NCBI GenBank assembly: GCA_043228905.1
Contig: JBHGNT010000014.1
Span: 9,362,001 to 9,426,000 of the forward strand
Origin: Azolla caroliniana
Lineage: Eukaryota; Plantae; Polypodiophyta
DNA: 64,000 nt
Direction: 5' to 3'
Shown in pieces: positions 3,547-51,144 of the stretch. Below the pieces are notes generated by a model. That model searched no databases and was not told where the DNA came from. It saw only the letters and a program-made list of their open reading frames with translations. Each line of letters starts with the position of its first letter. The first letter of the stretch is position 1. The translations under genes were made by a program, and so were the position numbers.

Positions 3547-3684
3547 TGTCAGGAACAGTACTGAGACAGAGAAGGAATTAGTACTAAACGAAGGATTAGT
3601 ACTAGGAGAGGTGTAGAACTTCTTCGAGAGAAGGAAGGAGTGAGCAAGACGGGGAGAGAGAGAGAGATCGAGAGAGAGAGAGAG

Positions 3685-5615
3685 AGTCACGGATCATAAA
3701 CTCAAGAGACAAGCAAGAAGATAACCAAATGGACAAGAAAGAAGATAGTATTAAAGGAAAGACTCCATAATTGGTGTTGTTCACCTTGAATTCCTTCAAG
3801 GTGAACTCCTCTATTTATACTACATGGCATGCATACTTGTTGCACGCATGTGAATCTACAATAGAGCATGTAGGTATGCATGCATGTGCCAAGTGTAAAT
3901 ACTACAAGGGAGCAACTATGCACATGATGCTAGCAAAATAATAAGGACCAATTACATACATAACTAGTACTAGATATCTTGGTTAACTCATAATACTAGA
4001 TTATAACATGGTCGTGTCAAGAGTTCGAATCTTGACATTATCCCCCCTCTTACGCCGCCTTCCCAAATCGGCCGCTGGTTTGTGGGGATATCGGTGATGA
4101 AAATCTTGGACGACCTCTGGGGCATTTTGTAAATTTGCCGATGGTTCCCATGTGGCCTCAGACATGGGGTAAACCCTCCATAGGATGAGGTATTGCAAGT
4201 GTCGACGGTGCCAACGCGAGTCAAGGATTTGGTCGACCTCGTATTCCTCCCCTGTCGTCAATTGCACAGGTGGTGGTGGTGGGGCTTGACGTCCTGGGAG
4301 TTGTGAAGCATAATGGGGTTCGAGGAGGGAGACATGAAAAACATCATGAATCCGGAAGTGGGATGGAAGGGAGAGCCGGAAGGCGACGGGATTGATGCAC
4401 TCGATGATACGGAATGGTCCCAACTTCTTGTAATCAAGTTTCGCACATGGACGAGTAGTAGAGATGTGTCGACGTAACAACCAGACCATGTCTCCAACGA
4501 CAAAGTGTGGAGTGGAAGATCGATGGCGATCAACCTGCTTCTTGTATCATTCACTAGCAAGACTAAGCTCCAAGGATAAATCATGATGTACTTCTTCCAA
4601 AATGCGGGCGCGATCCTCCGCCGAAGGGTTCACGGAAGTGGTAGCAAGGGAAATGTTGAAGCGAGGATGTAAACCGTAGTTGGCAAAGAAGGGAGTGACG
4701 CCAGTCGATGCATGGAGAGAATTATTGTAGGCGAATTCCGTGAGCGAAAGTAAGTTGACCCAATCATCTTGTTGGTAACTAACCGAGCACCGAAGATACT
4801 GCTCAAGGATTTGGTTGACACGCTCCGTTTGCCCGTCAGTTTGGGGGTGATAAGGTTTCTACCAATGGTGCAAACCAAGCTTGGGCCGGACCGGAGAGAA
4901 GGGTGCCCACAAGGCCGACTTGTCGAAGACCATCTCCATAACGTTGAGGTTGTAGCCAAATGATAAGTCGAACTTGGTTGATGAACCCTTGGAAATGCGA
5001 CCTCGTTCCATCAAATTTTTCGGCGGAGGATCGGGCTCTAGGCTAGGTTGTTGTGGGAGACTAGGGTTCGGGGGTTGTGAGGATAGGGAGGTACCGACTT
5101 GAAGTTCTTGTAAAGAATTTCGAAGAGCTTCATTTTCAAGCTGTAGTTGTCGTAAGGCTACCATTATTTGGCCTAACTCACTAGTTGAGTCGGACATAGC
5201 AATGGCTTATGAGAGGGAGAGCTATGAGGATGGGAAGGTGAACAAATTGTCATGGATCATAAACTCAAGATTCGAACTCTTGACACGAACATGTTATAAT
5301 CTAGTATTATGAGTTAACCAAGATATCTAGTACTAGTTATGTTTGTAATTGGTCCTTATTATTTTGCTAGCATCATGTGCATAGTTGCTCCCTTGTAGTA
5401 TTTACACTTGGCACATGCATGCATACCTACATGCTCTATTGTAGATTCACATGTGTGCAACAAGTATGCATGCCATGTAGTATAAATAGAGGACTTCACC
5501 TTGAAGGAATTCAAGGTGAACAACACCAGTTATGGAGTCTTTCCTTTAATACTATCTTCTTTGTTGTCCATTTGGTTATCTTCTTGCTTGTCTGTTGAGT
5601 TTATGATCCGTGACA
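3685..5615 (-). mobile_element. Element C: 1.9-kb internally deleted chromovirus with inverted LTRs, inserted in the (GA)n tract of B's 3' LTR
   Basis: LTR 3685-4037 (minus) followed by a PPT, and LTR 5263-5615 in the opposite orientation (same spurious 73-aa ORF on opposite strands). The gag start (5197) is fused near 4855 to the integrase C-terminus plus chromodomain (4001-4489). Flanked by GAGAG. Confidence 0.88.
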
Positions 5616-5850
5616 GAGAGAGTGATGATAAGAAAGATATGTATTATATGAAGAGAATATACAATGGTGGCTAAAAGGCTTAAGACTGGCGTTGAACCAA
5701 TTTGGTTCAACATAATGCCTAGTGCCCTCTTTTATAGTGTTTTCAGGAGTAATCTTGAAGCTTCTAGAATGTTCCAGATAAATCTGGAATATACACTAAT
5801 TTCCTATAATAAAATGTAAATGAAAATAATATCCTACATATTACAATAGA

Positions 5851-5905
5851 TGGTCTAATGGTCAAGAGCTCGACCCATATAATCTAAGGTCATGGGTTCG
5901 AGTCT
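5851..5905 (+). promoter_or_regulatory. tRNA-like Pol III A box/B box pair in the B-family LTR (other copies at 16744-16798 +, 44853-44906 -, 49863-49916 -)
   Basis: TGGTCTAATGG and GGTTCGAGTC start 44 nt apart, with an AGGTC variable-loop-like motif. No acceptor stem, so not a functional tRNA. Confidence 0.6.
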
Positions 5906-5934
5906 TGACATATCATGATACTATCCCCCTTTTA

Positions 5935-6923
5935 AAATGATGAGTGTCACGAGTCGTCTTGGATTGAGGACCCGGTTTGTGTGGATATTGACGATGGAAG
6001 TCTTAAAGAAGAGCACGAGCATTGGTCACATTCTCGATCGGTTCCCAAGTACGTTCGCTGGGACTATAGCCTAGCCAATCGACTAGATAGTAGAGCTTGT
6101 TGCGAACAATCTTGGAATCAAGGATGGCGGCAACCTCGTACTCCGGCCCATCTTCAAGCTCGATCGGGGGTGGAGGTTGGATAAGACGTCTTGGGATGGT
6201 GCTCTCGTGGTAGGGTTTGAGGAGAGAACTATGAAACACCGGATGTATCCGAAGTTGAGGAGGTAGATCGAGATGAAAAGCGACATCATTAATCTGTCCA
6301 ATCATACGGAAAGGACCTAATCGCCGATAATCCAACTTCTCACATGGGCGAGTAGTCTTGATGTGTTGTCGTAGCAGCCACACCCGATCTCCAATATTAA
6401 AACTGGATGGAAGTCAATGACGATCCGCGTAGACCTTGTGTGTTTGTTGAGCTTGCTGGAGATGAGTAGATAAATCCGCTTGTATCTTGCGTAACCGCTC
6501 CAAACGATCCTCCGCGCACGGATTTGTGGACACCTCTAGGGTTTCAAGTACACTCCACTGGGGGTGACATCCTGTATAAGCATAAAATGGCGTAACTTTA
6601 GTGGATGCGTGGATAGAGTTGTTATAGGCAAATTCGACGAAGTGGAGAATATCTGCCCAGTAGTCTTGATGATAACTGAGAAAGCACCGCAGATACTGCT
6701 CCAGCGTTTGATTTGTTCATTCAGCTTGGCCATCGGTTTGTGGGTGGTAGCCGGAGGAGAGGTGACAAGAGACCTTGAGCATGTTAAAAAGGTGCTTCCA
6801 GAATTTTGATATGAACTGGGGTCCACGGTCGCTGATGATACTATCGGGAAGTCCATGATGCCGACATACTTCACGCATGACAATTTCGGCAGTGTCTTCA
6901 CTGGAGATCTCCTTAGTACATGG
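5935..6923 (-). pseudogene. pol: Pol of element B, 3' part (integrase core and chromodomain)
   Basis: SDRGPQF, HPQTDGQ, GPF motif and chromodomain in ORF 6003-6383. Confidence 0.88.
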
Positions 6924-9900
6924 TGTTGAGAGACAAGCTCAACATCGGCCGGATCGGCTGAAGAAGCCGAGGACCAGATCGGTTGGGACCGATTAGTTAG
7001 GCCGAGTGCGTAAACCGCGAGGCCGTTAGGAAAGATATTCCGTGAGGAATATATTTGGGAGTTAGTGTAGGAGCTCTTAAAGAGCATTGAAGTACGGTCA
7101 GTACTTCGGTCAGTCCTTCGAGGACTTGTACAAAAGTGTTCATGGAACACACATATGTATAGAGTAGTGAATCGAGAACTTTTGTTGTCGAATATAGTTC
7201 TTCTTTCTCTCTCTGTCTCTCCTGAGTATACTACGTAAGCTCAAGCTCTCCGTTAAACCTGAGTTTTCTATCTTCTGTTCGGTCTTCATACTTGCTTCCG
7301 CACGCTACTTTCTACATGGTATCAGAGCGCGAGGGTTGAGAACCTCTCTGCAACCGACACAGTGACGAAGAAGAACAAGAAGAACGATGGATAGAGGCAT
7401 GGCGAGCTTGCTTCCAACAGAGAAGCTCGACAGAACGAACTACACGTCTTGGTCCTACAAGATGCACCAGTACCTGCTCGGGCACGGCTACTGGAGTTAT
7501 GTCGAAGGAGCTAATGACGTGGCACCCGAATCGACACACAGAGACTTCCCGTCGTGGGAGCAATCGGCGAGCAGGGTATTATACTGCTTCGCGTCGTGTG
7601 TGGGCAAACAACTATTGAGCTATGTCCGGGATGCAAAGACGCTGAAGGGTGCGTGGGAAAATCTGAAGAAGATTTTCGCCGCGAGCACCACAGCCAGGAA
7701 GCTCCAGCTCCGACAGGAGTTGAGCAACCTACGACAATGCGACTTGTCGGTGGCGGACTATACATCGAAGATCAAGGATATCTGCGACTCCCTCGCCTCC
7801 ATAGAGGTGAACATCGAGAAGAGCGAGATGGTCCAGATCTGTCTCGGAGGTTTGGCGTCGAAGTTCGGAGCGTTCCGAACGGCTGTGTGTACCCGGGAGA
7901 ATACGCCGCCCTTTTTCGACTTACAGTCGATGCTCTTGGTAGAGGAGAACCACGCGGGTGCGTCGACGAACACGCACACCGACAGCAAGATGTTGTACAC
8001 GGAGGGAGAAAGGCCCCGTGGTCGTGGCGGACGAGGCGAGTCGGTACGCAAGGGAAGCGGCCAACGACATCAAGGAAGAAGGCACCGAAGTGATGTGGAC
8101 AGCAACTCCGAACCCTCCGGAAACAGGGGGAGTCAAAGCGATGAGAACCGGCAAGGGAAGGCCATCGCAGAGTGCTAGTACTGTGGCAAGAAAGGCCACA
8201 AGGAAAGTGAGTGCTGGAAGAAGTGGGCTGATTCGGAGAGAACCGGTTCCGGAAACGGCTCCGGACATACCGACAAGAGAAATCGGCAGCGATCGCACTA
8301 CGCCGAAGACTCCGGGAGAGCCGAAGAAGGGTCTGCCTTCGTGACGAGACACGAAGTAAACTCAATGAAGTAGACCACCCTGAGATCGGACGAGGTGTGG
8401 TACGTAGACTCCGGCGCGTCAAACCACATGACGAGCCATAAGGAGTGGTTCTCGTACCTTGAAAAACCGATACAACCTGGAGTAGTCGCAACTGGAGACG
8501 ACACTCCGCATCCGATCGCGAATGTCGGAGAAGTTCCCCTTAGTCATGTCGGGTAGAAAGGGAAACTCATTAACGTGCTGCACGTCCCAACAATCACGAA
8601 GAACTTGGTCTCGGTCTGACAGATCGTCGACCAAGGGATGGAGGTTCAGTTTACACACCTCGGGTGCTTCATTGAGGAAGAAGGCCGTGTGATTGCGCAA
8701 GGGCGCAGAGACGGGAGGATGTTCATCCTCGACTCCATTGACGGCGGCACCGCAATGTTCGTGAAGGGAAGAAAAACTGAGTCGGACATCGACTTGTGGC
8801 ACAAGCGGATAGGCCACGTCAACTACCAACGGCTTCAAGATCTGCAATCGAAACAGGTAGTGTTCGGATTGCCCAAATTTAGTGGCCGAAAGGCACAAAT
8901 TTCTGAAGCCTGCCAGCTCGGGAAGCAACACCGACTTCCTTTCCCCAACGAGCGAAACCGGAGCCGGAACAAGCTCGACCTTATACACTCCGATGTGTGG
9001 GGGCCGGCACAAAACGTTAGTCTTGGCGGGAGCCGATATTTCGTCTCCTTCATCGACGACCACACGCGGCACACGTGGATCTACCTCATTGAGAGGAAGA
9101 GCAAAGTCTTCGACTGTTTCCGTGACCTCAAAGGGTTCGTGGAAACGGAAACGGGACGAAAGATCAAGTGCTTGCGGACGGATGGAGGAAAAGAGTACTT
9201 TTCCGGTCAATTCAACGGTTATCTACAACAAATGGGAATTCGACGCGAATTCAGTTGTAGATACACACTAGAGCAGAACGGCGTGGCCGAGAGGAAGAAT
9301 TGGTCAGTTGTGGAAGCGGCACGGGCAATGTTGGAGGAGAAGAGCTTGCCCAAGTTTTACTGGGCCGAGGCGGTAAGGACCACGGTGTACATCCAGAACC
9401 GGATCGGAGACAAAGTGTCGGCGCACGAGCTATATTTCGGAACGAAGCCGAACTTGCGACACTTGAGAGTGTTCTGTAGCATTGCGTATGTGCATGTACC
9501 GAAGGAGAAAAGGAGGAAGCTGGACGCAAAGGCCGAGAAATGCATCCTTGTCAGTTACTCGGACGAGCAGAAGGGTTTCAAGTGCTATAACCCTCGCACC
9601 AAACAAGCGCGTGTTAGCCGCGACGTTGTGTTTGACAAGTCCGTGACCTGGTACCAACCCCCGACTCCGAACCCCGACTCCAATCCGAGCTCTGACGATG
9701 AGGTCAGCGAGGCCGAGATGCCTCCGGATGAGCCCGAAATCGAGACCCGCGAAGAGAGTCCGATTTCACTCCGTTTAAGTGGACCAAGTGGACGACTGAG
9801 TCGGTACGACCAGTCCGATGAAGAGCCGGCGAGCAGTGGAGACTTGGCCATGCATTCCCCGCGCAGGAAGCCGAGGAGACGGCTTACGCGCAAAGAGAAA

Positions 9901-12564
9901 GGGAAGAAGAAGGTGTCGGATTCTGGCACGGATAGGAACGAGTCAGACCGACGCGAGTCCGACTCCGAGGGAACCGGTGACGGGTCTTTAAAGGTGAAGA
10001 CCGCGTCGACCGAGAAGGCCTCGACATCGGCTAATGAGAGATTACGCCGATCTACCCGCCAGAAGAATCCTGTTTTGCGGTTCGGATACAACGAGTACAT
10101 GGCGCATCATTATGCGTAAATGACCCGTGTAGCGGAAGTGTGTGAGCCGGAGAGCTACGCAGAAGCGGCTAAAGGTGCGAATTGGCGTGCCGCGATGGAG
10201 GAAGAGATGCACGCATTGGCAGAGAATGAGACCTGGGACCTGGTTGGCGCACCAACAGGGGTAAAACCGATCGGGTGTAGGTGGGTGTACAAGGTCAAGT
10301 GCAACACCGATGGCTCGGTCAACCGGTACAAGGCTCTGCTAGTGGCAAAGGGCTACGCGCAGAAACACGGCATCGACTACGATGAAACATTTGCGCTAGT
10401 CGCGAAAATGACGACCGTCCATGTTTTGCTCGTAGTAGCTGCGGCCAAGGGGTGGCACCTACATCAGATGGATGTAAAGATTGCGTTCTTGCAAGGTGAC
10501 CTTGAGGAACAGGTGTACATGGTACAACCTCCCAGATTTCACTCTGCAACGAACTCCTCGGCAATATGCCGACTGAAGAAGTCCCTTTACGGACTGAAGC
10601 AAGCCCCGTGTGCCTGGAACGCGAAGATCACGCAACAACTGCGTCGGATGGGCTTCGTCACGTCAAAATCGGACTCTTCCATGTTCATCCGGAAAGGTCG
10701 ACTTGGGCCGGTTAGTATTTTACTATATGTTGATGACTTGATCATCACCGGCGCCGACCTACGTGAAATCGACCGCGTGAAGCTCTAACTTGCGGCATCG
10801 TTCGACATGAAGGATCTAGGGGACCTTCATTACTTCCTCGGGATCGAAATGATCCGTACCCCCGAAGGCATATTGATCAACCAACGTCATTACGTGCTGA
10901 GTATGCTCTTCAAATTTGGGATGGCCGACTGTAAGTCCGTCTCGACTCCTGTTGACAGAACCGTCAAGCTTCGTCCCGATACGGGAAAGGTATGCGACCC
11001 GATGAGGTTCCGACAAATTGTCGGAAGCCTCATATACTTGACCATCACCCAACCCGACCTCAGTTATCCGGTCGGAGTGATCAGTCAGTTCATGGCGTGA
11101 CCTACCGAGGAGCACCTTCAGTGTGCGCAACGCATACTTCGGTATGTCAACGGCACTAAGGACCGGTGCAGCCGTGCAGTTAGTCGGCTACACCGATGCT
11201 GATTGGGCTGGCAACGCCGCCGATCGCCAATCCACGTCCGGATACACGTTCTTCCTCGAGAGTGCTGCGATCGCGTGGAGCAGTAAGAAACAGCCGACAG
11301 TTGCACTGTCGAGCACCGAAGCTGAGTACCGAGGAGCGGATGTCGCGACATGCGAAGCCATATGGTTGAAGCGGCTACTTAAGGACCTGCAAGAGGAGGT
11401 GTCAGATCCGACGACGATCTACTGCGACAACCTCAACAACATCCAGCTCGCGAAGAACCCCGTTTTCCACGCACGGACCAAACACATTGAGGTGCACTAC
11501 CATTTCGTCCGTGAGTGTGTCCTTTCCGATGAAGTCGAACTTCAGTACGTTCCGACGGATCGGCAGACTGCCGACATTTTCACCAAGCCTCTTGGTCTGG
11601 ACAAGTTGCGGCAATTCTCAGGTGCGCTCGGATTGCGTCACCTCGACGTGCCAAACTTGAGGGGGAGAACAGTCCCGGACGACCAAGCAAGGCAGCAGGA
11701 AAGGAACGGAGACCGCGACACCACCGAGTCGGTTGACTCGGTTGTCAAGTTCGACTTCGGATCGGCTGAAGAAGCCGAGGGCGGACCCGCGGAAAAGTTC
11801 AGAAGAGGGCAGAAGGGGAGAAATCGAAGGAGAGAGCCGAAGCCAACCACGCATGGGGAAGATGACGCCACCGAGGGTGAGAAGACCGAGGACGAGTTGG
11901 AGACACCGAGGTAGCCGAGTCGGTTCGGATGTTTGATTCAGACACGTTGAATCAACCGAGGCCCAAGCGGAAGAAAAGGCAGCAGGAGAAACGTCAACAC
12001 CGCAACAACAGAAGAGCTGATAAGGGCCGCATGAGCAGACAAGCCGACCGGAAGGGTCGAAGCGCGCGGAGTCGAACAGGTCGAGGAGCGCGAGCGAGGC
12101 GTGAAGCCAGGAGGAACCGGAGCTGTGAGCCCGAGGATCCCGAAGAGCCTCGAGTTGAGCTTGAGGGGGAGTGTTGAGAGACAAGCTCAACATCGGCCGG
12201 ATTGGCTGAAGAAGCCGAGGACCGGATCGGTTGGGACCGATCGGTTAGGCCGAGTGCGTAAACCAGGAGGCCGTTAGGAAAGATATTCCGTGAGGAATAT
12301 ATTTGGGAGTTAGTGTAGGAGCTCTTAAAGAGCATTGAAGTACGGTCAGTACTTCGGTCAGTCCTTCGAGGACTTGTACAAAAGTATTCATGGAACACAC
12401 ATATATATAGAGTAGTGAATCGAGAACTTTTGTTGTCGAATATAGTTCTTCTTTCTCTCTCTGTCTCTCCCGAGTATACTGCGTAAGCTCAAGCTCTCCA
12501 TTAAACCTGAGTTTTCTATCTTCTGTTCGGTCTTCATACTTGCTTCCGCACGCTACTTTCTACA
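6924..12564 (+). mobile_element. Element G: complete Ty1/copia inserted in B's integrase
   Basis: TSD CATGG at 6919-6923 and 12565-12569. 393-bp LTRs at 6924-7316 and 12172-12564 (TG..CA, about 11 differences by eye). tRNA-iMet PBS TGGTATCAGAGC at 7317-7328. PPT at 12161-12171. Confidence 0.96.
7387..11914 (+). pseudogene. gag-pol: Gag-pol of element G
   Basis: Gag (MDRGMASLLPTEKLD), CCHC knuckle, WYVDSGAS protease, integrase (HSDVWGP, RTDGGKEY), RT (LYVDDL) and RNase H. Several premature stops (e.g. 8176, 8371, 10117, 10786) and a frameshifting deletion near 11165. Confidence 0.92.
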
Positions 12565-12569
12565 CATGG

Positions 12570-15146
12570 CAAGAAATGAGCCATCTTCGTGTATCGATCG
12601 ACCACCGTTAGAATCGCATTGAACCCCTTAGAGACTGGAAGATCTGTGATGAAGTCTAGAGCAATGGATTGCCACAGCTGGCTTGGAATTGGTAATGGTT
12701 CTAATAAACCATATGGATGATGCCTTGGCATTTTCGCTCTGCAACATGTATCACAAGTCCGAACAAAATCCTCGACAAATTGTCGCATACAGGGCCACCT
12801 GAATGATCATTGTACTAAATGTAATGTTTTAGTACTACCAAAATGCCCAGCTGTATATGTGTCATGGCAGTTTTGAACTACTTGAAGGCGGCAAGAACCA
12901 TTAGGAACATACAAAAGTTCTTTAAAAAAGAGTAATCCATCATGGTATTTGAATTGCCGATAGTCCGTACCCGGTGGTTGCGACTGTGAACACGACGCTC
13001 GAGAGGGATCAATTTGTGCTAGTATAGCTTGGGCAAACGCATCTGTCTTCAAGTCTTCACGTATGGTATCGATAACGCGGGAATCCATGGGCATGTCAAA
13101 GATCTGTGTTGCTTGTAGTCGTGCCGGTCCCAAGATGACTTGTTTTTGGTTATCGAAAGTTGGCTCGCCGGGACGGGGTGCTAGATACGAACGTCGTGAT
13201 AATGCATCTGCCTTCCCTTGGTGCTTCCCCGGACGATATGTAATTTTGAAGTCGAAACGCGTGAGGAAGTGGGCCCACCGAGCTTGACGTTGATTCCACA
13301 CACGAGCATCCTGAAAGTAGGCAAGATTCTTGTGATCACTAAATACGGTGACTGGATGAGAGGATCCCTCCAGAAAATGCCTCCATTGCATAAAAGAATC
13401 CACTATTGCCAATAGCTCCTTATCATGAATTTCGTAGTTAATTTCGGCGGCGTCAAACTTGCGTGAGTGAAAAGCCACAGGATGTAGCTTCTCATCATTC
13501 CCCTGTTGTGACAGAATTTTCCCCAATGCAAAATCCGATGCGTCAGCTTCGATAATGAATGCGTTTTCCGGATCGACATGAGCTAGAATTGGAGCCGATG
13601 TAAATGCCTTTTTAAGACTCTCGAAAGCCATGTCCGTTTCTTCAGACCAGATGAACGGTTGTCCCTTCCTGGTAAGTTGTGTGAGAGGTAGAACGATCTT
13701 TGAGTAATCTTGTATGAACTTCCGGTAAAAATTGGCAAAGCCTAGGAAGTATTGCACATCCTGCACCGAACGCGGAGTTTGCCATTCTACCACTGTTTTG
13801 ACCTTAGCTGGGTCCATGGAGATGCCTTCTGACGAAATGATGTAGCCGAGAAATTCCACTTGGTTGCACCCGAAACTACATTTTTCCAGCTTTGCATACA
13901 GACCATGTTCTCGAAGTCGTTTTAGTACTAATAGTACATGAGAATCATGTTCTTCTTGGGTCTTTGAATAAACCAGTAGATCATCCAAACAGATGATCAA
14001 ACAATCATCCAATAGATCTCGGAATATATCATTAGCCATGTGATGGAAGACTGTTGGCGCATTGGTGAGGCCGAACAACATGACCGTATACTCGAAGTGC
14101 CCATATCTGGTGCAAAACGCGGTCTTCCATTCGTCTCCTTGTCGGATCTGTACGAGGTTATCTGCTCCCCGTAAGTCGATCTTCGTGAAGAACCTGGCAC
14201 CATTGACCCGTTCTAAAAGACTTGAGATAAGGGGAAGAGCATACCTATTCCTGATTGTAACCTTATTCAAGCCACGGTAATCTACAACGAGACGAAACGA
14301 TCCATCTTTTTTCTTGACGAAGAAAATGGAAGCATCGGCTGGAGATTTTGAATGTCGAATGAAACCATTTTCCAAATTCTCCTCGATATAGGCCCGAAGG
14401 ACTTCCAGCTCGGTTGGTGACAAATTGTAGATCGGTCCCCATGGCGGCTCTTTTCCCGGTTGTAAATCGATGGGGCAATCGTACGGTTGATGATGAGGAA
14501 GTGTGTTGGCTTGTACTTTATCGAACACATCGGCGTAATGACGATACTTCTCGGGAAGTTGAACGATGGATTGTCCTTTAGTGGTGCTGGAGGGGTTTAC
14601 TGATATTGCAAAGAGGAACATTTCCTCCATGCGCCCTTCGTTACGCAACTGACGTAGCGAAATGGTTGCCATCTTCTGAGTTGACCCTTGGGTTTGTCGA
14701 CACCGGATTTCTCTTGTTCTCCAATCTATGTCTGGGTTATGTAACTCGAACCACGGTAATCCTAAAACTATAGGATGTTCTGGGATACTAATAATATTAA
14801 ATGATACTACACATGCTAAGTTATCTAGGACAATATTAATGGGCTCTGACTCTTCTATGATATTTCCGGAAGCAATGGAACGTCCATCAATGACTACTAC
14901 AGAGGCTGGACACTGGAGTTTTCTTAGGGATATCTTATGAGCTTGAGCAAATTTCTTATCCATAAAGCAAGAGTTAGCTCCGGAATCTAGGAGTGCTAGG
15001 ACATGTATTGGAGGGGTACTTTTAGTACTAACTATTACTTGGGCTACGAACACATCACTAACTTGCTTAGAGGGAATGGAACCACTAATGGGCTGCACAA
15101 ATCTAGGGCTGTCGAACCAAACGGCTCCTATTTTGGCTGGACTTAG
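12570..15146 (-). pseudogene. pol: Pol of element B, 5' part (protease, RT, RNase H, integrase N-terminus)
   Basis: LLDSGA protease, RT (VDYRGLN, CLDDLL), RNase H (ADASD, DHKNL) and integrase zinc finger. Stop at 12807; interrupted by element G. Confidence 0.9.
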
Positions 15147-16294
15147 TCATTTAACTCTTCTTCTAACTGACTAGGGACATCAAATTTGTTCGCTAGATCT
15201 GGGCTATTAGTACTATTAGGACTATTAGATATTCCTACTGAAATAGGCTCGGGTTTAGTACAATTAGAACTAGCGACTATTTGGTTTACCTGTCTTCGAG
15301 GCCTATGGGGGCAATTTATTGCGATATGTCCTGGTCCACCGCAGTAAAGACATAGTCGATTTGTACGGTGTCGCTGCTTTTCTTCTTCGGATAATGGCCC
15401 TCGACGACGTGTAGTGTCAATCTCCATCGGAGTCGGAGTATTCGCTGGAGGCGCATTATATGACTCCCTCGGAAAAGGTCTTGCTACCACTGAGGCGTAG
15501 GTGGGCTCTGATCTTGGCCTCGGCATCTGTAGCTGTCTTTCCGAACGTCGCTCAAAGAGGCGGTTGTCACATCTCACCGCGCGACTGATTGCTTCTGTTA
15601 AGGACTTTGGCTCTTCGGGGAAGGTCAAGAGTAAATCCTTGACGTCGTTGCGTAAACCATAACGGAATTGCTCCATCAATGCTTGATCATCCCAAGGGAT
15701 ATCGGCGGTGAGTAGGCGAAAATCTGCAGCGTATGCGGAGGCTGGACGGTCACCTTGGCATAATCGTCGAATTTTGTTGATTGCGGTCTTGATGCTGTCA
15801 GTATCTCCGAAACATGCTTTAAACTCACCTAGAAACTCTTCAAAATTGTTGAGTAACGGAGATTCCTTTTCTAATAGTGGAGCGAACCATGACAATGCTG
15901 AACCACTTAACAAAGTGCCTACTAAACCCACTCGTGATGCATCGGTGGGATATCGGGAAGGATGCATTTGGATAACTAATCGTACCTGGTTAAGGAACCC
16001 TCTAAACTGCGATCGCGTTCCATCGAAGTTCGTGGGAAGGCCAATCTTGGGTTCTTTATGAATTCCTTGTGTTCCGGGCCCTTGTTGTTGCATCGCAACG
16101 ATGGTTGCTTCAAGTTGTTGCACACGTAATGCAAGTTCACCATGTTGTTGTTGCGTTTGCTGCTTTTCTAAGGAGATTTGCTGAAGATCCCCCAACAATC
16201 GTTGGTTTTCTTGTTCCAAAGCATGGAACTTCTCTTTCAAGCATTGAAATTCCGAGAAAACAGATTGATATTCTTCAGCACTAATAGTGGCCAT
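15143..16294 (-). CDS. gag: Gag of element B (coiled coil, capsid domain, CCHC zinc knuckle)
   Basis: Intact 383-aa ORF with FDGTRSQFRGF, LSGSALSWF and CLYCGGPGHIAINC. Confidence 0.9.
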   Translation of the reverse strand: MATISAEEYQSVFSEFQCLKEKFHALEQENQRLLGDLQQISLEKQQTQQQHGELALRVQQLEATIVAMQQQGPGTQGIHKEPKIGLPTNFDGTRSQFRGFLNQVRLVIQMHPSRYPTDASRVGLVGTLLSGSALSWFAPLLEKESPLLNNFEEFLGEFKACFGDTDSIKTAINKIRRLCQGDRPASAYAADFRLLTADIPWDDQALMEQFRYGLRNDVKDLLLTFPEEPKSLTEAISRAVRCDNRLFERRSERQLQMPRPRSEPTYASVVARPFPRESYNAPPANTPTPMEIDTTRRRGPLSEEEKQRHRTNRLCLYCGGPGHIAINCPHRPRRQVNQIVASSNCTKPEPISVGISNSPNSTNSPDLANKFDVPSQLEEELND

Positions 16295-16367
16295 GGGATG
16301 AAAGAAAAGAGGAATAAGAGATTAGTAGGAAATGAGAGAGATAGAAGGTAGAGAAATTGGTTCAAAC

Positions 16368-16472
16368 TGTCAGGAACAGTACTGAGACAAAGAAGGAATT
16401 AGTACTAAACGAAGGATTAGTACTAGGAGAGGTGTAGAACTTCTTCGAGAGAAGGAAGGAGTGAGCGAGACG

Positions 16473-16518
<46 letters not shown>

Positions 16519-16813
16519 TGATAAGAAAGATATGTATTATATGAAGAGAATATACAATGGTGGCTAAAAGGCTTAAGACTGGCGTTGAACCAATTTGGTT
16601 CAACATAATGCCTAGTGCCCTCTTTTATAGTGTTTTCAGGAGTAATCTTGAAGCTTCTAGAATGTTCCAGAGAAATCTGGAATATACACTAATTTCCTAT
16701 AATAAAATGTAAATGAAAATAATATCCTACGTATTACAATAGATGGTCTAATGGTCAAGAGCTCGACCCATATAACCTAAGGTCATGGGTTCGAGTCTTG
16801 CCATATCATGATA
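16368..16813 (-). repeat. 5' LTR of element B
   Basis: Matches 3547-3684 plus 5616-5920 and, reversed, the LTRs of element M. Confidence 0.92.
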
Positions 16814-18027: not shown

Positions 18028-19533
18028 ACTGGTTGTTCTTGTTCCACACATAACTCTTTTCATGGTAACAGAGTGCAAGGGTTGAGAATCCTCTGTTGTC
18101 AACATAAAAACCGTAGACAGATCAAAACCTAGCCTCAGGAAAGAATGGACAAAAGTATGGCAAGCTCGCTTCCGACTGAGAAGCTCGACAGAAACAACTA
18201 TGTGTCTTGGTCTTACAAGACGCATCAATACCTACTAGGTCACGAGTACTGGAGTTATGTTGAAGGAGCGAACGAGGTAGCGCCAGATTCGGCACACAAG
18301 GACTTCCCCGCTTGGGAACAAGGAGCGAGCAGAGTGTTGTATTGCCTCGTGTCTTCCGTGCACGACTAGATGTTGGGCTATATCAGAGACACGAAAACGC
18401 TGAAGGAAGCCTTGGAAAATCTCAGAAAGATTTTTGTTGCAAGTACCATGACACGGAAGTTGTAGCTCTGACAAGAGCTCAACAATGTCCAGCAAAGGGA
18501 CATGTTGGTCACCGACTACACCACGAAGATAAAGGAGATCTGCGACACACTAAGGTCCATCAACATGATGGTGGACGAAGACGAGATGGTGCAGATCTTC
18601 CTCAGTGGTCTCACGTAGAGGTACAAGCCAATTTGGACGGTGATATCCACCCAAGAGAAGTCACCATCCTTCTTTGACTTGCAATCGATGTTGATGGTCG
18701 AAGAAAACCATGTGAGTGAGTCAAGGACCACTCACTCGGACAGTTGGATGCTATACATGGAGGCAGATCGGCCCCATGGGTGTGGTGGATTAGGTGGATC
18801 GGCACGCAATAGTGACGTCCAATAAGAGAAGGAAAGAAGCCACAAAGGTAATGTTGTCGAACTGACACAAGCAGGGGGAGTCAAGGTAGCACCGGAAACC
18901 GGCAAGGAAAGGCCGAAACAGAATGCTAGTATTGTGGAAAAAAGCCACTAGGAGAGCGAGTGTTGGAAGAAGTGTACCGATATGGACAAATCCAGATCCG
19001 GCAAGACCAGAGAAGGGAGTCAACAAAGCTCGCACTACAAGGGATCAAGATCTGGAATTGGAAAGATCGGAAAAGGGCGAGCCTTTGTGATGAAGCACAA
19101 GGAAAACTCGATGAAGAAGACCACCTCACAATAGATGAGGTGTGGTACGTTGACTGTTGAGCGTCAAATCAAATGACGAGCTATGAAGAATGGTTCTCAT
19201 ACTAAGAGAAACTAGAGCAACCGGGAGTGGTCGAACCCGGAGACGGCACTCCGCACCCGATCGAACATGTCTATGAAGTTCCCTTAAGTCATGTCGGACA
19301 GAAGAGAAAACTCATGAACATGTTGCACGTTCCGACAATAACAAAGATCTAGGTATCAGTCGGGCAGATCGTAGACCAGGGGTTGCAAGTTCAATTTACA
19401 CATCTCAAGTGCTTTTGTCATGGACATGACAACAGTCATGTCACGATTCGAACTCTTAACCTACTGTATTATAATCAATCAATATGTTTTAATTAACACA
19501 TCCGATACATGGTCATATTACCTTTGTAGATTA

Positions 19534-22626: not shown

Positions 22627-25600
22627 ATATGATTGTCTGATCGATCTACAAGAAGGCACATCTCCACCCTTTGGGCCCATCTATGGTCTCTCTGACCCAA
22701 AACTAGAGGCTCTTCGCAAATATCTACATGAACATTTGGAGAAGGGCTTCATCCAACCGTCTAAGTCACTAGCTAGGGCCCCATCTTGTTTGTGAAGAAA
22801 AGGGATGGATCGTTGCGCCTATGTGTGGATTATCGTGGCCTCAATAAAATCACGGTATGTAATCGCCACCCTTTACCTCTAATCCCAGAACTCCTCGATC
22901 GCCTTCGTAGTGCACATGTCTTCTCCAAGATTGATTTGCAGGGATCATACAACTTAGTTCGGATTAAACCTAGTAATGAATGGAAGACAACATTTCCCAC
23001 AGGACACAGACACTTTGAGTACAAGGTAATGCCTTTTGGACTCACCAATGCTCCAGCTAATTTTCAACATATGATGAACAACATATTTCGAGAATATCTC
23101 GATCACTTTGTCATTATCTAACTTGATAACATTCTTGTCTTCTCGTCAAGAATTGAAGAGCATACTCACCACATTCGATTGATTCTCTCGAAACTTAGGG
23201 ATCATGGCCTCTATGCCAAGAGAGAAAAATGTGAGTTTGATCGTAATTCCATAGAATTTCTTGGTTATGTTATCTCACCGCAGGGCATCACCATGGATCC
23301 AAGGAAAATCAAGAACATCCAAGAATGGGCCACTCCAAAATGAGTAAAGGATGTCCAAGCATTACTTGGTTTTGCGAATTTCTATCAAGGATTTTTCAAG
23401 GGGTTCTCCGTCATAGTCCAACCCTTGATTGAGCTTACTCATAAAGGGATGTTGTTTCAATGGACTCCATCTACTCAACATGCCTTCGACCTACTCAAGG
23501 AAATTTTTAGCTGGGCTCCAGTCCTCCGTCACGTTGACCCCACTAAGGCTTTTCAAGTTGAAAGAGATGCCTCTGACTTTGCTATTAGTTCCATCTTATC
23601 CCAACCCAATGATGATGGCATCCTACATCCGGTGGCGTACTACTCCCAAAAATTCATAGATCCAGAAATCAACTACCCCATCTATGACAAGGAGCTCGTT
23701 GCTATAGTGGCAGCTTTCACAAAGTGGAGACCTTACTTGGCTGGGGCGCAACATCGGGTTCGGGTAATAACATATCATACAAATTTATTGTATTTCTCAA
23801 CAACCTGTACTTTGAATTGGCGGTAGGTTGGTTGGTCAAGTTTCTTAGCCAACTATGACTTTGAAGTTGTTTTTCAACCAGGGGTACAAAACATGAAGGC
23901 TGATGCTCTTTCACGGCGCTCAGATTTCGAGTTGAGCCTAAGGGATGATGCCTATGCTCAACAATCTCAATGTTTGTTAAAACCATATAAATTCCAACTC
24001 TTTGCCACATGCATGCTCCAAGTCGACTCTTTGCTTGAGGAGATAGCCAAAGCACTCCCCACCGACAAATTCGCAAATACAATTAAGAAAGGTCTTATTG
24101 ATCCGTCTAAACCCAAGAGCACGGAAGACCTTGATCGCTTCAGATTCGAGGGGGGACTGCTTTACCAAGTCCAGCTCTTATATGTTCCGGAGGGCCGGTG
24201 TCGAACTCAAGTTCTCCAAAAGTGTCATGAAGACCCCTTTGGCTAGCCATTTTGGCGTTACAAAGACACTCGAATTAATCTCACGAGGATATTGGTGGCC
24301 TCAACTGTGGAAGTTCGTCAAGGAATTCATCAAGACATGTGATACTTGTGCTCGATCCAAAGTCCTCCACCATAGGCCATATGGGTTTCTCCAACCACTT
24401 CCCATTCCCAATCGGCCTTGGGCATCAATTTCCATGGATTTCATCACTAACATGCCTCTAGTCCACAAATATGACACAATGCTCGTCATCGTAGATCAGA
24501 TTACAAAGATGGCTCGTTTTGGCCCCTATGCAAAGACTATTTCAACAAAAGCAATAACCGATCTATTTTTAAAGAATGTGGTGCGGCTTCATGGGGTCCC
24601 GGACAATGTCACCTCAGATCGCGGACCCAATTTGTCTCTCATTTTTGGCGATGACTCCTTCAAACACTACCAGGCACAAAAGTGAATTTGTCTTCGTCTT
24701 ATCATCCTCAAACCAATGGCCAAACTGAGCAGGTGAACCAAATTCTTGAGCAATACCTTTGGTTCTCGCTTAGCTACTAGCAAAATGATTGGATTGACCT
24801 CCTACTCGCATACCAACTAGGGTCACCCCATTTTTCTCCATATATAGTTTGCATCCTCGCTTCAATATTTCCATCCCTGGCAACACTGTCAACCCGTCAG
24901 CGGAAGCACAAGCTCGTATTTTAGCCAACATTCATCAAAAATTTCCCTCGAGCTCATCCTTGCAAGGGACCGGTACAAAGTGAAAGTTGATCGACATCAC
25001 TCAGCCACACTCGGCTTCGCAGTTGGTGATCAAGTTTGGCGCTTACGTCACCATGTCGACACTACTCGACCTTGCGAAAAGTTGGACTACAAGAAGTTAG
25101 GGCCATTCCACATCATTGAGCGTATCAACCCCGCCATTTTTCAGCTGGAACTTCCTCCACATAACCGGATTCATAATGTCTTCCATTCCTCTCTTCTTGA
25201 ACCTCATCATCCATCCACTATTCCTGGAAGACACTCTCCACCTCCACCCCCAATCGAGCTTTCCATAGGCGAGGAGTATGAGGTGGACAAGATTCTGGAC
25301 TCTTGTTGGCATCAATGACAACTTCAATACTTAGTCCTATGGAAAGGGTATCCATTTCAGAGGCAACTTGGGAGCCAACCCAACACTTGGAGAATGCACC
25401 AGATGTTGTTCATGCATTTCATCACCAATATCCACAAAAACTAGGGAGGCATCTTCGGAGGTGGCCTTAGAGGGGGGATATTATGATTCAAACTATTAAC
25501 CTACTATATTAGAATCAATCGATATGTTTTAACCAACACGTCTGATACATGTTCATGTTTATGTTAGTAGATTATTGTAGATTATCTATTCTAGAAGCTT

Positions 25601-26190: not shown

Positions 26191-26714
26191 TGTCATGACA
26201 CAACGAATCTATTAAATACGTAGTTAATGAGGATTGAACCTGCAACCTCACAACTACAAGATGTCATGCTCAACCATTTTGATATGAGCAGTCATTTGTA
26301 TATAAATATAGGTTTAGTATAATTCTATAGTCTAGCATATGATACATTTCAGAATTAGAATATTTTAGTCAGTAGTATATTCTAGAAATATTGTATGACA
26401 TATTGTAGACGAGTATATTCTAGATATATTTCTCTAGTATATTCTAGAGATATTCAATCTTGGAACATGTATAAATACTTGTAACCTCCTTGGTCCCTTT
26501 CAAGGGATTCAACACTAGTCATTGACACATCAATCTAGTATTCTCGTTTCGCCACATCTTTGTCTCCTTGATCTTTATTTCTCTCTTCATGCCCTCATGT
26601 TGCTCACAACATATAGAGTTCCTAGCTTTGTCACATCTAGCTCCAAGTTCATCTGTCGCTCGTAGCCCCATCATTTGTGCTCCGCCCTAGTCCGTGCTTG
26701 GTGTGTCCATGACA
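26191..26714 (+). mobile_element. Element I: solo LTR (TGTCATG..CATGACA termini, chromovirus-like) in H's integrase
   Basis: Terminal inverted repeats, TSD GTTCA/GTTGA, TATA box near 26470. H's integrase reading continues across it. Confidence 0.85.
26230..26284 (-). promoter_or_regulatory. tRNA-like A box/B box pair in solo LTR I
   Basis: The minus strand reads TATCAAAATGG-TTGAGCA...AGGTT-GCAGGTTCAATCC, again with 44-nt spacing. Confidence 0.5.
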
Positions 26715-34420: not shown

Positions 34421-34457
<37 letters not shown>

Positions 34458-39268: not shown

Positions 39269-39313
<45 letters not shown>

Positions 39314-43184: not shown

Positions 43185-45263
43185 TGCTATGTAGCCAAGC
43201 TGTTGTCTTACGCTTCCGCACATACGCTTCCACACAAAGGAAGTCTGAGTGAGCCGAGATGTCAAATTCAACGAGTCGTCATAATGGTACTCCCTACCGA
43301 CCCCGACCCTCGACAACTACGACTACCCGATCATTGAGGATGAGGCCAGTGAACCTGGCATGATTCGGGTAGAAGAAGAAGACGAAGAAGATTTAGGTAC
43401 TCTGGAAGAGAGTCTGATCTCATTCCAGGTAAGTGGGCCGAATGAGAGATTGAGTAAAATTGACCAGTCCGATGAAGAGCTGACGAGTGTTGAGGACTCG
43501 ACCGTGCATTCCCCATACAAGGAACCGAGGACATGACGGTTCACACATAAAGAGAAAGGGAAGAAGAAGATGTTGGAGTAGGGCACAGACAAGGCAAACT
43601 CGGATTGGAATGAATCCGACGCCAAAAAGAATGAAAACGGAGCTTCGGAAACGAAGTCTGAGTTAGCCAAGAGGGCCCTCAAATCGGCAAACAAGAAATT
43701 ACATCGATCGACCCACCAAAAGAATCTCGTGAAGCGGTACAGATATAATGAGTACATGGCACATCATGATGCGTACATGACGAAAGTGGCGGAAGTGCGT
43801 GAGCCAGAGAGCTATGCAAAAGCAACAATAGACGCGAATTGGTGTGCCGCAATGGAGGAAGAGAATGGAGGAAGAGATGTGAGCAGTAACGGAGAATGAG
43901 ACGTGAGACCTAGTTGACGCCTCCAAGGGTGTAAAGCCTATCAGATGTAGGTGGTTGTACAAGATCAAGTACAACGCCGATGGCTCCATCAACCGGTACA
44001 AGGCCCAGTTAGTCGCCAAGTTAGTCAACTATGATGACACGTTTACGCTAGTCGCAAAGATGACGACCGTTTGTATCTTGCTTGCGGTCGCGGCGGCGAA
44101 GGGTTGGGTTTTGCACCAGATGGATGTGAAGCATTCCTACAACGAGAACTTGAGGAACAAGTACACATGGTGCAACCACTCGGATTTCAGTCTTGAATCA
44201 ATATGTCAGTTGTATGCCGACTAAAGAAGTCTGTTTACGTATTAAAGCAAGCCACGGGTGCTTGGAACACGAAGATCACGCAGCGCCTATGTCGGATGCG
44301 GTTTGCTACATCCAAGTCGGACTCTTCACTCTTCATCCGGCAAGGTCGGCATGGGTCGGTAAGTCTTTTACTCTATGTCGATGATTTAGTCATCACTGGC
44401 ACCGACCTAGAAGAAATCGATTGCGTGAAGTCTCAACTTGCGGCATCATTTGAGATGAAGGACATGGGGGACCTTCACTACTTCCTCGAGATAGAAGTGA
44501 TAGACACCCCCACCGGCAGATTATTATTACAGAGACAATATGTACTAAATATGTTGTACAAGTTCGGCATGACGGATTGCCGACCGGTCTCAACACCCCT
44601 TGACCGGAATCAAACGGTCCTAACTCCGGACTGTCCTACAACGAGAAATGGTTCCAAAAAATTCTCAAAAGCCTAATATATCTTACTATCACCCAACCCG
44701 ACATCAGCTATCCGGTCGGGGTGATAAGTCAGTTTATGCAGCAACCGACCATCGAGCACCTTCAGTGCACGCATCCCCTACTGCGATATGTGGGCAGCAC
44801 TAAGGATTGAGGACTATTGTACTGACATGGTGTGACTGTCATGATATGGCAAGACTCGAACCCATGACCTTATGGTATATGGGTCGAGCTCTTAACCATC
44901 ACACTATCTATTGTAATTCATAGGATATTATTTTCATTTATGTTTTATTATAAGAAAGTAATGTATATTCCAGATTTCTTTGGAACATTCTAGAAGTTTC
45001 AGGATTACTCCTGACAACACTATAAAAGAAGGCACTAGGCATTATGTTGAACCAAATTGGTTCAACGCCAGTCTTAAGCCTCTCAGCCGCTTTGTACTTA
45101 TCTTTTCACATAATATATTAGCTGCTGTCATCATCTTTCTCTCTCTCTCTCCTCTTCTCACTTCCTCTCTCAGGAATCTTACGTAGTCCCGTCCTCTTAG
45201 TACTAATAGTACTGCTCTTCTTAGTACTAATTCCATCTCTGCTTTAGTACTATTCCTGACAGT

Positions 45264-45275
45264 TTGAACCAATTT
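45264..45275 (+). promoter_or_regulatory. Self-priming-type primer binding site of element M
   Basis: TTGAACCAATTT, 2 nt after the 5' LTR, is the exact complement of LTR 45054-45065 (33 nt after TATAAAA at 45021). No TGG-initiated tRNA PBS is present. Confidence 0.75.
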
Positions 45276-49835: not shown

Positions 49836-51144
49836 GGGGGAGATAGTGTCATGATATGGCAAGACTCGAACCCATGACCTTATGGTATATGAGTCGAGCT
49901 CTTAACCATCACACCATCTATTGTAATTCATAAAATATTATTTTCATTTATGTTTTATTATAAGAAAGTAATGTATATTCCAGATTTCTCTGGAACATTC
50001 TAGAAGTTTCAGGATCACTTTTGACAACACTATAAAAGAAGGCACTAGGCATTATGTTGAACCAAATTGGTTCAACGCCAGTCTTAAGCCTCTCAGCCGC
50101 TGTGTACTTATTTTTTCACATAATATATTAGCTGTTGTCATCATCTTTCTCTCTCTCTCTCTCCTCTTCTCACTTCCTCTCCCGGGAATCTTACACAATC
50201 CCGTCCTCTTAGTACTAATAGTACTGCTCTTCTTAGTACTAATTCCATCTCTGCTTTAGTACTATTCCTGACAGTGACTAGGCAGGTGATGTGTCAGATC
50301 GTCGGTCAACATTTGGCTTTATGTTCTCTCTTGGTAGCGCGGTTGTTGCATGGACCAACAAGAAGCAGTCGACACTAGCTCTGTCAAGCAATGAGGTTGA
50401 GTATCGAGGAGCTACCATCGCGACCTGTGAAACCATACGGTTTCATCAACTACTACAAGACCTCTAGATCGAAGTACCAACTCCGATCCCGATCTACTAT
50501 GACAACATAAGTAGCATGTAGCTGGCCAAGAACCCTGTGTTCAATGTTCGGACGAAGCACATAGAAGTGCATTATCACTTTGTGCACGAGCAGGTTCTGA
50601 GTAGTGAAGTCGGAACTACGGTATGTTCGAACGGATCGGAAGGTTGGTGACATCTTCACCAAGATACTCTGATTGGACAAGTTGCAGCACTTTTCAGATA
50701 TGCTTGGACTGCAGCATCTTGACGTGCCACACTTGAGGAGGACAATCGGAATAGGAACCAAGAGAACCTGTAACAGCACGAGAGAAGCAGCCAGAAAGAA
50801 GAAGGAAAAGACCAAAATAGAGGGAAACAAGAAGAAAAAGGAGGCCGAGTTGACTGAAGATGTTAGCACATCCGATAAAGTCAGAACAAGCGGTAGTGGC
50901 AGCCGAATCAAGAAGGACATGGCCGACCGGAAGATAAAGACCAAGACCCAGACATGGTCTAAGATTGAAGACTCAGAAGAGCTAGAACGAATTGGAGACA
51001 ACCGACTCAGAAGAGGTGCTCATTTCGGAGGAGCCAAATCAACAGAAGGCCAAATGGACAAGAAGGCAACGGAAGTTGACACCGACACGGAGGAGCCGAC
51101 AGGTCGAGCAATGTCGAAGTCACAGCAGCGAAGGAATTTGACGG

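What the first reader, a model, noticed from the sequence alone, without database searches (positions are those of the whole stretch)
5846..5920. Antisense tRNA-like Pol III promoter embedded at the U3 end of several chromovirus LTR families
Seen: all four full B/M-family LTRs carry an A box (TGGTCTAATGG or TRGTGTGATGG) and a B box (GGTTCGAGTC) 44 nt apart, which is tRNA spacing, with an AGGTC variable-loop motif. The dissimilar solo LTR I has its own pair at the same spacing (26230-26284). Families C and D keep a B-box core GTTCGAATC right at the U3 terminus (4023-4031, ~19446-19454). All are antisense to the element and within 100 bp of the U3 end. Known: Cassandra TRIMs carry 5S/Pol III promoters in their LTRs, and tRNA genes/TFIIIC sites can act as chromatin boundaries. 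Inference: elements that no longer use a tRNA primer may carry a tRNA mimic as an insulator, enhancer or antisense promoter. This is the best candidate here for an undescribed system, together with self-priming.
Basis: partly seen in the sequence, partly recalled or inferred. Interest (0 to 1): 0.82.

Follow-up and report, generated by a model that had tools for sequence, protein, structure and literature searches.

The report
Backwards tRNA promoter in retrotransposon ends
Several families of self-priming plant jumping genes carry, back to front at the outer edge of their terminal repeats, the promoter boxes of a tRNA gene without its cloverleaf shape, which likely bind the host factor TFIIIC and would shield or open the element's own predicted heat-shock promoter, although no binding or RNA has been shown.

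Summary
In this nest of plant LTR retrotransposons the published extended B-box consensus has 6 exact matches (0.16 expected). All 6 lie antisense within 35 bases of the U3 start of self-priming, Tcn1-like chromovirus LTRs. A profile built from unrelated tRNAs ranks these sites first in the window. The B/M family has an A box at the modal tRNA spacing. Corrections: D is not a separate family; C/D and I have weak A boxes; no cloverleaf or conserved terminator remains; the A box is no better conserved than flanking U3; the B/M module folds into a long hairpin; two clade members lack it. The B box persists across lineages whose LTRs no longer align, so selection for TFIIIC binding beside a heat-shock-type Pol II promoter is the best reading (0.40), ahead of a carried SINE/tRNA relic (0.27). 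No RNA or ChIP data were available. Closest known: Helenus TRIMs and foamy-virus LTR Pol III cassettes; these elements differ in being protein-coding, antisense and self-priming. The scan noted tRNA-type boxes in fungal LTRs before (unreviewed). New variant of a known kind.

The parts
5844..5920 (+). tRNA-derived module in the 3' LTR of element B (element on - strand, so antisense): A box 5851-5861, extended B box 5889-5904, LTR U3 start at 5920
   Evidence: (12.4 bits)
16737..16813 (+). same module in the 5' LTR of B: A box 16744-16754, extended B box 16782-16797
   Evidence: (14.5 bits)
44837..44913 (-). same module in the 5' LTR of M: extended B box 44853-44868, A box 44896-44906; also the arms of a long imperfect hairpin (about 44846-44865 with 44879-44899)
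   Evidence: (13.9 bits)
49847..49923 (-). same module in the 3' LTR of M: extended B box 49863-49878, A box 49906-49916
   Evidence: (14.5 bits)
4016..4031 (+). exact extended B box at the U3 end of the 3' LTR of C, in the loop of a terminal 8-bp hairpin; A box degenerate
5269..5284 (-). exact extended B box in the inverted 5' LTR of C
19445..19460 (-). extended B box (1 mismatch) in the truncated 5' LTR ('D') of the D/C2 element
25485..25500 (-). decayed extended B box (2 mismatches, C56 to T) in the 3' LTR of the D/C2 element
26231..26284 (-). module of solo LTR I (26191-26714): extended B box 26231-26246 (1 mismatch), A-like box 26274-26284
   Evidence: (9.8 bits)
44983..45000 (+). four-unit heat-shock-element pattern (GAAnnTTCnnGAAnnTTC; consensus recalled) in U3 of M5; equivalents at 5757, 16650, 49993, and three-unit hits at 25589 and 25621 in C2
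   Evidence: all 10 three-unit hits in the window lie in these LTRs
45021..45065 (+). TATA box (45021) and the 12 bases (45054-45065) that are complementary to the primer site; predicted Pol II start
45264..45275 (+). self-priming site after the 5' LTR of M (no tRNA primer site); the same in B (12 bases) and C (11 bases)
48264..49835 (+). integrase, Tf2-1-like SH3 and chromodomain with the three aromatic cage residues (element M, 44837-50273, TSD GTGAC)
3547..16813 (-). element B (TSD TATCT), with C inserted in its 3' LTR and a copia element in its integrase

Best explanation
The outer ends of these self-priming chromovirus LTRs carry antisense tRNA-type promoter boxes, likely captured from a tRNA gene or SINE head and likely kept because the B box binds host TFIIIC, which would mark the edge of the element and hold open the heat-shock-type Pol II promoter that lies just inside it. 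Shown: the boxes, their spacing, orientation and position; loss of the cloverleaf; the HSE pattern, TATA box and self-primer further in; persistence of the B box in lineages whose LTRs do not align. Inferred: origin by capture (once with later losses, or two to three times); TFIIIC binding; a boundary or nucleosome-clearing effect. Geometry: antisense orientation would place TFIIIB at LTR positions of about 80-115, facing the HSE (147) and TATA (185), and would send any Pol III away from the Pol II promoter. B/M and I may have full A+B promoters; C/D look like B-box-only (ETC-like) sites. The module is dispensable at clade level.
For: 6 exact extended B boxes vs 0.16 expected, all at U3 starts, antisense; 0 of 2000 own-composition shuffles of each of the B5, M5 and C3 LTRs gave one. 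Independent tRNA HMM ranks the modules first. Relatives from metagenomes carry it at the same place: L001, L078 (B/M type), L002 (D type). B/M and C/D lineages are separate branches (100/99 and 99/93 within a 98/91 clade), integrases about 54% identical, and their LTRs share by blastn only the HSE segment and CT repeats, yet both keep the B box. RNA-level tRNA features are gone. Only 2 of 57 other LTR starts had even a minimal antisense B box. A distant chromovirus LTR (L097) has two A+B modules in sense orientation, which fits an orientation-tolerant DNA-level role. TFIIIC-only sites act as barriers in yeasts (PMC3159450, passages). A TATA-like word lies at -39 of the tRNA-equivalent start in B3, near the -35 peak of plant tRNA genes (PMC3082873 passages).
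Against: No ChIP, RNA or reporter data. The A box is no better conserved than its flank (8/11 vs 63/70); in laid contigs 5 of its 11 positions vary at >=4% in at least one of 3 covering runs, including G10 to A in 12-18% of two runs. B-box conservation between B and M (18/18) is not significant against a 90% identical flank, and the B box lay in the edge zone where one search lists no variants. L003 and L006 in the same clade lack the module; L001 and C2 have C56 to T and L078 C61 to T. A SINE head captured after its own selection would show the same pattern. The CAA motif is not at the plant position -7 to -3, and the region is AT-rich, so the TATA-like word is weak. In B/M the best conserved visible stretch is the hairpin arm 44879-44893, not the A box.
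Confidence: 0.4

Rival explanations
1. Passenger relic: a SINE head or tRNA pseudogene fragment was captured antisense in a master copy (once per lineage) and is carried without function.
For: Dispensable in L003 and L006; decayed in L001, C2, L078; A box not more conserved than flank; U3 as a whole is 90% identical between B and M; PMC10886601 (part 2) says that not a few Repbase LTRs hold partial tRNA similarity.
Against: Same motif, side, strand and position in three LTR lineages that do not otherwise align; exact 11-of-11 consensus in two of them while the rest of the tRNA shape is unrecognisable.
Confidence: 0.27
2. What is selected is a hairpin at the U3 start (for plus-strand initiation, packaging or integrase end-processing); the tRNA boxes are raw material, and the B/M 'A box' side may come from a duplicated B-box unit.
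For: B/M module folds with z of -2.9 to -4.1 on both strands in M5, B3 and L078 (L001 only -1.1 and -1.9); its D-arm/T-arm duplex is stronger than in 147-148 of 148 real tRNAs; the left arm is itself a 1-mismatch extended B box resembling the C/D unit, whereas real D arms have 3 or more mismatches; C, D/L002 and I have other hairpins at the U3 start, and distant L232 starts with a similar hairpin without a B box.
Against: 0 of 21 pairs show a compensatory change in 6 sequences; the hairpins differ between lineages while the B box is the common part; most other LTR starts do not fold better than shuffles; the variable-loop motif lies in the loop and is not explained by symmetry.
Confidence: 0.13
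3. The B/M module is a working antisense Pol III gene that makes a short hairpin RNA (small-RNA precursor or silencing decoy), like the Pol III cassettes in foamy-virus LTRs.
For: A+B boxes at tRNA spacing, TATA-like word upstream, stable hairpin on the transcribed strand; precedent in SFV LTRs, where A- or B-box mutants lose expression (PMC3993851, passages).
Against: No conserved terminator: first T4 lies 7 to 191 bases after G53 or is absent within about 200 bases in 11 contexts, and is within 40 bases in only 2; the lineages share no RNA structure.
Confidence: 0.12
4. Anti-tRNA RNA element: in the element's RNA the segment pairs with the D and T arms of a host tRNA, as the U3 part of the bipartite Ty3 primer site does.
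For: Antisense orientation and position in U3 match Ty3, where the T arm and D arm of the primer pair with U3 (PMC5371799, passages).
Against: These elements have self-priming sites; in B/M the anti-T-loop is buried in a stem; T-stem sequences differ between lineages; L097 has sense modules that cannot pair.
Confidence: 0.05
5. Landing pad: the boxes recruit TFIIIB/TFIIIC so that tRNA-gene-targeting elements insert upstream, which would build nests.
Against: The two insertions are not at a fixed short distance; C lies in a CT repeat; B, M, I and D/C2 inserted into copia sequence; the D/copia junction lacks the copia LTR end and is a deletion, not an integration.
Confidence: 0.03

Closest known systems
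Helenus TRIMs (TRIMp3; Kojima 2024, PMC10886601; parts 1-4 of 6 and passages read, supplements not read)
   Same: tRNA-derived segment in both LTRs, boxes A and B kept, tRNA fold lost, SINE capture proposed, Pol III activity untested; one family in Selaginella.
   Different: Helenus is short, non-coding, has a tRNA primer site, and its boxes are proposed to transcribe the element (sense is implied; the main text does not state orientation). Here the elements encode Gag-Pol, are self-priming, have a TATA/HSE promoter, and the boxes are antisense at the U3 edge.
Cassandra and Ajax TRIMs (as described in PMC10886601)
   Same: Pol III promoter motifs inside LTRs.
   Different: 5S-derived, non-autonomous, transcribe the element itself.
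Pol III miRNA cassettes in foamy-virus LTRs (PMC3993851, passages)
   Same: A/B-box elements and hairpins inside the LTR of an autonomous retroelement.
   Different: Those have terminators and shown RNA products; here no conserved terminator and no RNA evidence, in a plant retrotransposon.
ETC/COC sites, TFIIIC-only boundaries of yeasts (as summarised in PMC3159450, passages)
   Same: Isolated extended B box without a working tRNA gene (C/D).
   Different: Known sites are host chromosomal elements; here the site would travel with the transposon; binding untested.
Tcn1 clade / Tf1-Sushi chromoviruses (PMC6317226 and PMC2864245, passages)
   Same: Self-priming, chromodomain with aromatic cage, gag-PR-RT-RH-IN-CHD order, short LTRs, nearest relatives in non-seed plant and fungal-type contigs.
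   Different: No tRNA-type boxes are mentioned for their LTRs in the passages read; no named reference was available for a tree.
Ty3 bipartite primer-binding site (PMC5371799, passages)
   Same: Sequence complementary to tRNA T and D arms in U3.
   Different: Ty3 is tRNA-primed; these elements are self-priming and keep full tRNA spacing.

Membership tests
Helenus / TRIMp3 | tRNA-like segment with boxes A and B in the LTR | tested here: met
   (B/M; partly I, C/D)
Helenus / TRIMp3 | non-autonomous, under about 1.3 kb, no protein | tested here: not met
   M is 5.4 kb and B about 5.3 kb without nested inserts, with gag, pol, integrase and chromodomain
Helenus / TRIMp3 | tRNA primer-binding site | tested here: not met
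   primer site is complementary to the LTR 33 bases after TATA
Helenus / TRIMp3 | Pol III promoter oriented to transcribe the element | tested here: not met
   all modules antisense
Tcn1 / Tf1-Sushi chromovirus | self-priming in place of a tRNA primer site | tested here: met
   11-12 base complement in B, M, C and L003
Tcn1 / Tf1-Sushi chromovirus | chromodomain with aromatic cage after integrase | tested here: met
   PF00385; Y, W, Y residues visible (cage positions recalled)
Tcn1 / Tf1-Sushi chromovirus | RT-RH-IN phylogeny with named Tcn1 references | not testable with these tools
   no REXdb references; tree of unnamed relatives only. Solo LTR I has no coding region, so its family is inferred from its termini
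functional tRNA gene | cloverleaf with acceptor, anticodon and T stems | tested here: not met
type 2 Pol III gene | A and B boxes at tRNA spacing | tested here: met
   B/M 45 bases; I 45 with a G10 mismatch; L002 46 with weak A box; C about 52
type 2 Pol III gene | oligo-T terminator close downstream | tested here: not met
   within 40 bases in 2 of 11 contexts
type 2 Pol III gene | TFIIIC/Pol III occupancy or transcript | not testable with these tools
   no ChIP data; no RNA holder listed
ETC-like TFIIIC boundary | extended B box | tested here: met
ETC-like TFIIIC boundary | barrier or insulator activity | not testable with these tools
   needs reporter assay

The most novel reading that the evidence does not exclude
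Self-priming plant chromoviruses carry their own portable TFIIIC boundary, and in the B/M lineage an antisense Pol III hairpin-RNA gene, back to back with a heat-shock Pol II promoter, so that each copy stays inducible inside heterochromatic nests; plant and fungal chromoviruses would have captured such boxes repeatedly.
Probability: 0.2. Interest if true: 0.8.

Novelty: new variant of a known kind. Interest (0 to 1): 0.5.

Why it matters
How LTR retrotransposons stay expressible when buried in methylated nests is an open question. A TFIIIC site at the LTR edge would be a simple, testable answer, and thousands of dispersed copies (about 2,700-4,600 contigs per run lay on one 511-base LTR stretch in four coded organisms) would spread TFIIIC sites across the genome. 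PMC10886601 argues that autonomous partners must use Pol II and treats small-RNA promoters as a trait of short non-coding elements; antisense boxes in protein-coding elements would extend that. If it is a relic, it still matters for tRNA-pseudogene annotation.

Tried and rejected
No whole genome is held, so no genome-wide alignment or insertion map. ARAGORN: 0 genes; at lowered thresholds the module appears only at 75%, among 120 noise calls. Rfam: no tRNA match at E<=10 in the window or in 5800-5960. blastn of the B3 module against phages gave only 18-19 base matches at E 2-7, 3 of 10 records on annotated tRNAs; the I module gave none on tRNAs: not used as evidence. Sequencing runs: no RNA holder listed; X20 proved probably DNA and X23 laid nothing. 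One search lists no variants in 44837-44872, but it also lists none in its last 33 bases where one search shows strong ones, so this blank is an edge effect and was not counted; one search showed only 40 of 82 rows. Depth peaks over the B box, HSE and TATA are not a valid measure and were not counted. One search used a structure string off by three columns (the +3 slide gave 95.9% paired, 0 compensatory); one search replaces it. Two patterns for the LTR starts found nothing in viral contigs. Cluster look-up gave no informative names. Landing-pad and anti-tRNA readings were considered and scored low. Literature: 9 answered searches; some searches looked for tRNA-type boxes or TFIIIC sites in autonomous or chromovirus LTRs and returned no description of this arrangement; the library lacks most subscription papers, and the Helenus supplements and Repbase entries, unseen, may hold such cases.

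Full report
Context. The window is a nest of Ty1/copia and Ty3/gypsy elements. The gypsy elements B (3547-16813, - strand), M (44837-50273, +), C (3686-5614, inside the 3' LTR of B), D/C2 (19416-25820) and the solo LTR I (26191-26714) have TG..CA-type ends and 5-base target duplications, two of them with one mismatch. M encodes integrase, a Tf2-1-like SH3 domain and a chromodomain. B, M and C have no tRNA primer site; the 11-12 bases after the 5' LTR are complementary to the LTR 32-33 bases after the TATA box, the Tf1-type self-priming that PMC6317226 (passages) gives as the mark of the plant Tcn1 clade. I file them as Tcn1-like; no named reference was available for a tree. An earlier unreviewed note calls the host a fern; I did not test that.

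The observation. All four complete B/M U3 ends carry the A and B boxes antisense, with T8 to G53 of 45 bases, the mode in the fetched tRNAs (92 of 148). The extended B-box consensus printed in PMC3159450 (passages) has 6 exact matches against 0.16 expected, all at U3 starts of B, M and C; D and I match with one mismatch, a level at which the window count (11) is close to chance (4.9). None of 2000 shuffles of each of the B5, M5 and C3 LTRs gave an exact match. An HMM built from 150 distinct phage tRNAs (most were chosen by a D-loop/T-loop pattern, so it leans to those motifs) gave its seven best window hits at B5, M3, M5, B3, I, D and C3; five exceed the best hit of each of 20 block shuffles. 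The copies are not independent: they stand for three lineages (B/M, C/D, I). ARAGORN and Rfam find no tRNA: the cloverleaf is gone. 'D' is the start of the 5' LTR of the D/C2 element joined by a deletion to a copia LTR.

Distribution. Of 179 related loci from three collections, 138 had at least 120 bases after the chromodomain; among these only L002 scored 5 bits or more antisense (null 0.35% of 2840). L001 and L078 fell outside that filter but carry the B/M module by eye and score 6.2 and 7.2 bits. Of 60 LTR starts that could be located in loci, 3 carry the module and 2 of the other 57 have a minimal antisense B box. A tree of 34 integrase ends (loci at 44% identity or more over 200 residues, four window elements, four outgroups; L078 and I not included) joins B/M/L001 with (L006,(L003,(C,(L002,C2)))) at 98/91. 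L003 and L006 lack the module, so it was either gained once and lost twice or gained at least twice. The B/M and C/D integrases are about 54% identical and their LTRs share by blastn only an HSE segment and CT repeats. The B/M family is abundant in four coded organisms and present in a fifth. One distant element, L097 (32% integrase identity), has two A+B modules in U3 in sense orientation.

Conservation. Between B5 and M5 the extended B box is 18/18 identical, the A box 8/11, flanking U3 63/70, the start/self-primer 30/30 and R/U5 126/214. In laid contigs, 27 of 74 positions in the visible stretch 44869-44942 vary at 4% or more in at least one of three covering runs; variation clusters at the anticodon-loop equivalent (44873-44878), the A box (5 of 11 positions) and the flank, while 44879-44893 is nearly fixed. 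Most A-box changes stay within or move towards the consensus (position 9 A/G, position 12, G14 to A), and loose ends show subfamilies with a fully canonical A box, but G10 to A reaches 12-18% in two runs. With 4 variable positions among 11 in six aligned copies, 3 at degenerate sites, chance is about 0.35 (my arithmetic). So selection on the A box is not shown. The B box lay in the blind edge. It is intact at C56-G57 in 9 of 11 B/M and C/D copies and decayed in L001 and C2. The case for selection rests on its persistence across lineages.

The hairpin. The B/M module folds into an imperfect stem of about 20 pairs, z -2.9 to -4.1 on both strands in M5, B3 and L078, weaker in L001, with no compensatory change in 21 pairs over 6 sequences. 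Real tRNAs do not pair this way. The left arm is a one-mismatch copy of the extended B box and resembles the C/D unit, so part of the B/M 'D arm' may come from a duplication. C, D/L002 and I have different hairpins; the B box is the common element.

Promoter layout. Inward of the module lie a four-unit heat-shock-element pattern at LTR position 147 (all 10 three-unit hits of the window are in B/M and C2 LTRs; consensus recalled), TATA at 185 and the self-primer at 218. A TATA-like word sits at -39 of the tRNA-equivalent start in B3; plant tRNA genes peak near -35 and have CAA at -7 to -3 (PMC3082873, passages), and the CAA here is at +1 to +3, off position. No T-run terminator is conserved.

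Mechanism. Inferred: a tRNA-gene or SINE head was captured antisense at the U3 start and copied to both LTRs. The B box would bind TFIIIC at the outer edge of the 5' LTR; antisense orientation would put TFIIIB next to the HSE/TATA promoter and point Pol III away from it. TFIIIC-only sites are barriers and insulators in yeasts (PMC3159450, passages). I give this 0.40, a passenger relic 0.27, a selected hairpin 0.13, a Pol III hairpin RNA 0.12, anti-tRNA pairing as in Ty3 (PMC5371799, passages) 0.05, a landing pad 0.03. No step of binding or transcription was tested; no RNA run holds the element, which says nothing either way.

Comparison. Helenus (PMC10886601, parts 1-4 of 6, passages; supplements not read) is the nearest: tRNA-like LTR segments with boxes kept and fold lost. 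Membership fails on size, coding capacity, primer and orientation. That paper also says that not a few Repbase LTRs hold partial tRNA similarity, without describing the non-TRIM ones in the text read. Foamy-virus LTRs hold working Pol III A/B-box cassettes (PMC3993851, passages). PMC3601003 (passages) notes U3 inverted repeats in Sire elements; PMC11656987 (passages) has no mention of tRNA, polymerase III or B box in plant LTRs. Searches found no account of antisense tRNA-type boxes in protein-coding, self-priming plant chromoviruses. Earlier notes of this scan report tRNA-type boxes in two fungal LTR families, unreviewed and not support. Verdict: real feature, new variant of a known kind, function open; interest 0.5.

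Noticed in passing
window 5249-5614 and 3686-4037: The 5' LTR of element C is inverted (97.5% identical inverted pair), with a U5 end on both sides, joined at a 6-base microhomology between the U5 end and the U3 hairpin; the primer site still follows. Looks like a fold-back product of reverse transcription that integrated; the internal region is deleted to about 1.2 kb.
   Followed up: partly
window 5757, 16650, 44983, 49993, 25589, 25621: Heat-shock-element patterns (four units in B/M) in gypsy chromovirus LTRs; all 10 three-unit hits of the window are in these LTRs. The textbook case, ONSEN, is a copia element (superfamily recalled).
   Followed up: partly
L097 4834-4890 and 5002-5062: A distant plant-type chromovirus LTR (Tekay-like start, label recalled) holds two tRNA-type A+B modules in sense orientation in U3; best HMM score of all loci (15.5 bits).
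   Followed up: partly
L232 3877-3915: A distant relative (47% integrase identity) starts its LTR with a hairpin whose arms resemble the B/M stem but without a B box; homology or convergence unresolved.
   Followed up: no
window 19416-19533 and L002 4134-4156: The 5' LTR of D/C2 and L002 have an extra 23-base fold-back copy of the LTR terminus that the 3' LTR C2 lacks; 'D' is fused to a copia LTR missing its first ~26 bases.
   Followed up: partly
window 5920 and 16813: Both LTRs of B start with TA in place of TG, so the change was copied through a round of retrotransposition.
   Followed up: no
window 46144-46801 and 47701-48359: A 660-base inverted duplication (96%) inside pol of element M.
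   Followed up: no
window 30532-40505: Element F with 99% identical 390-base LTRs and ORFs 30972-31751 and 32017-33723 (- strand) that have no Pfam match.
   Followed up: no
L231-L309: Many prokaryotic genome records of the GTDB collection contain eukaryotic gypsy retrotransposon contigs, likely contamination.
   Followed up: no
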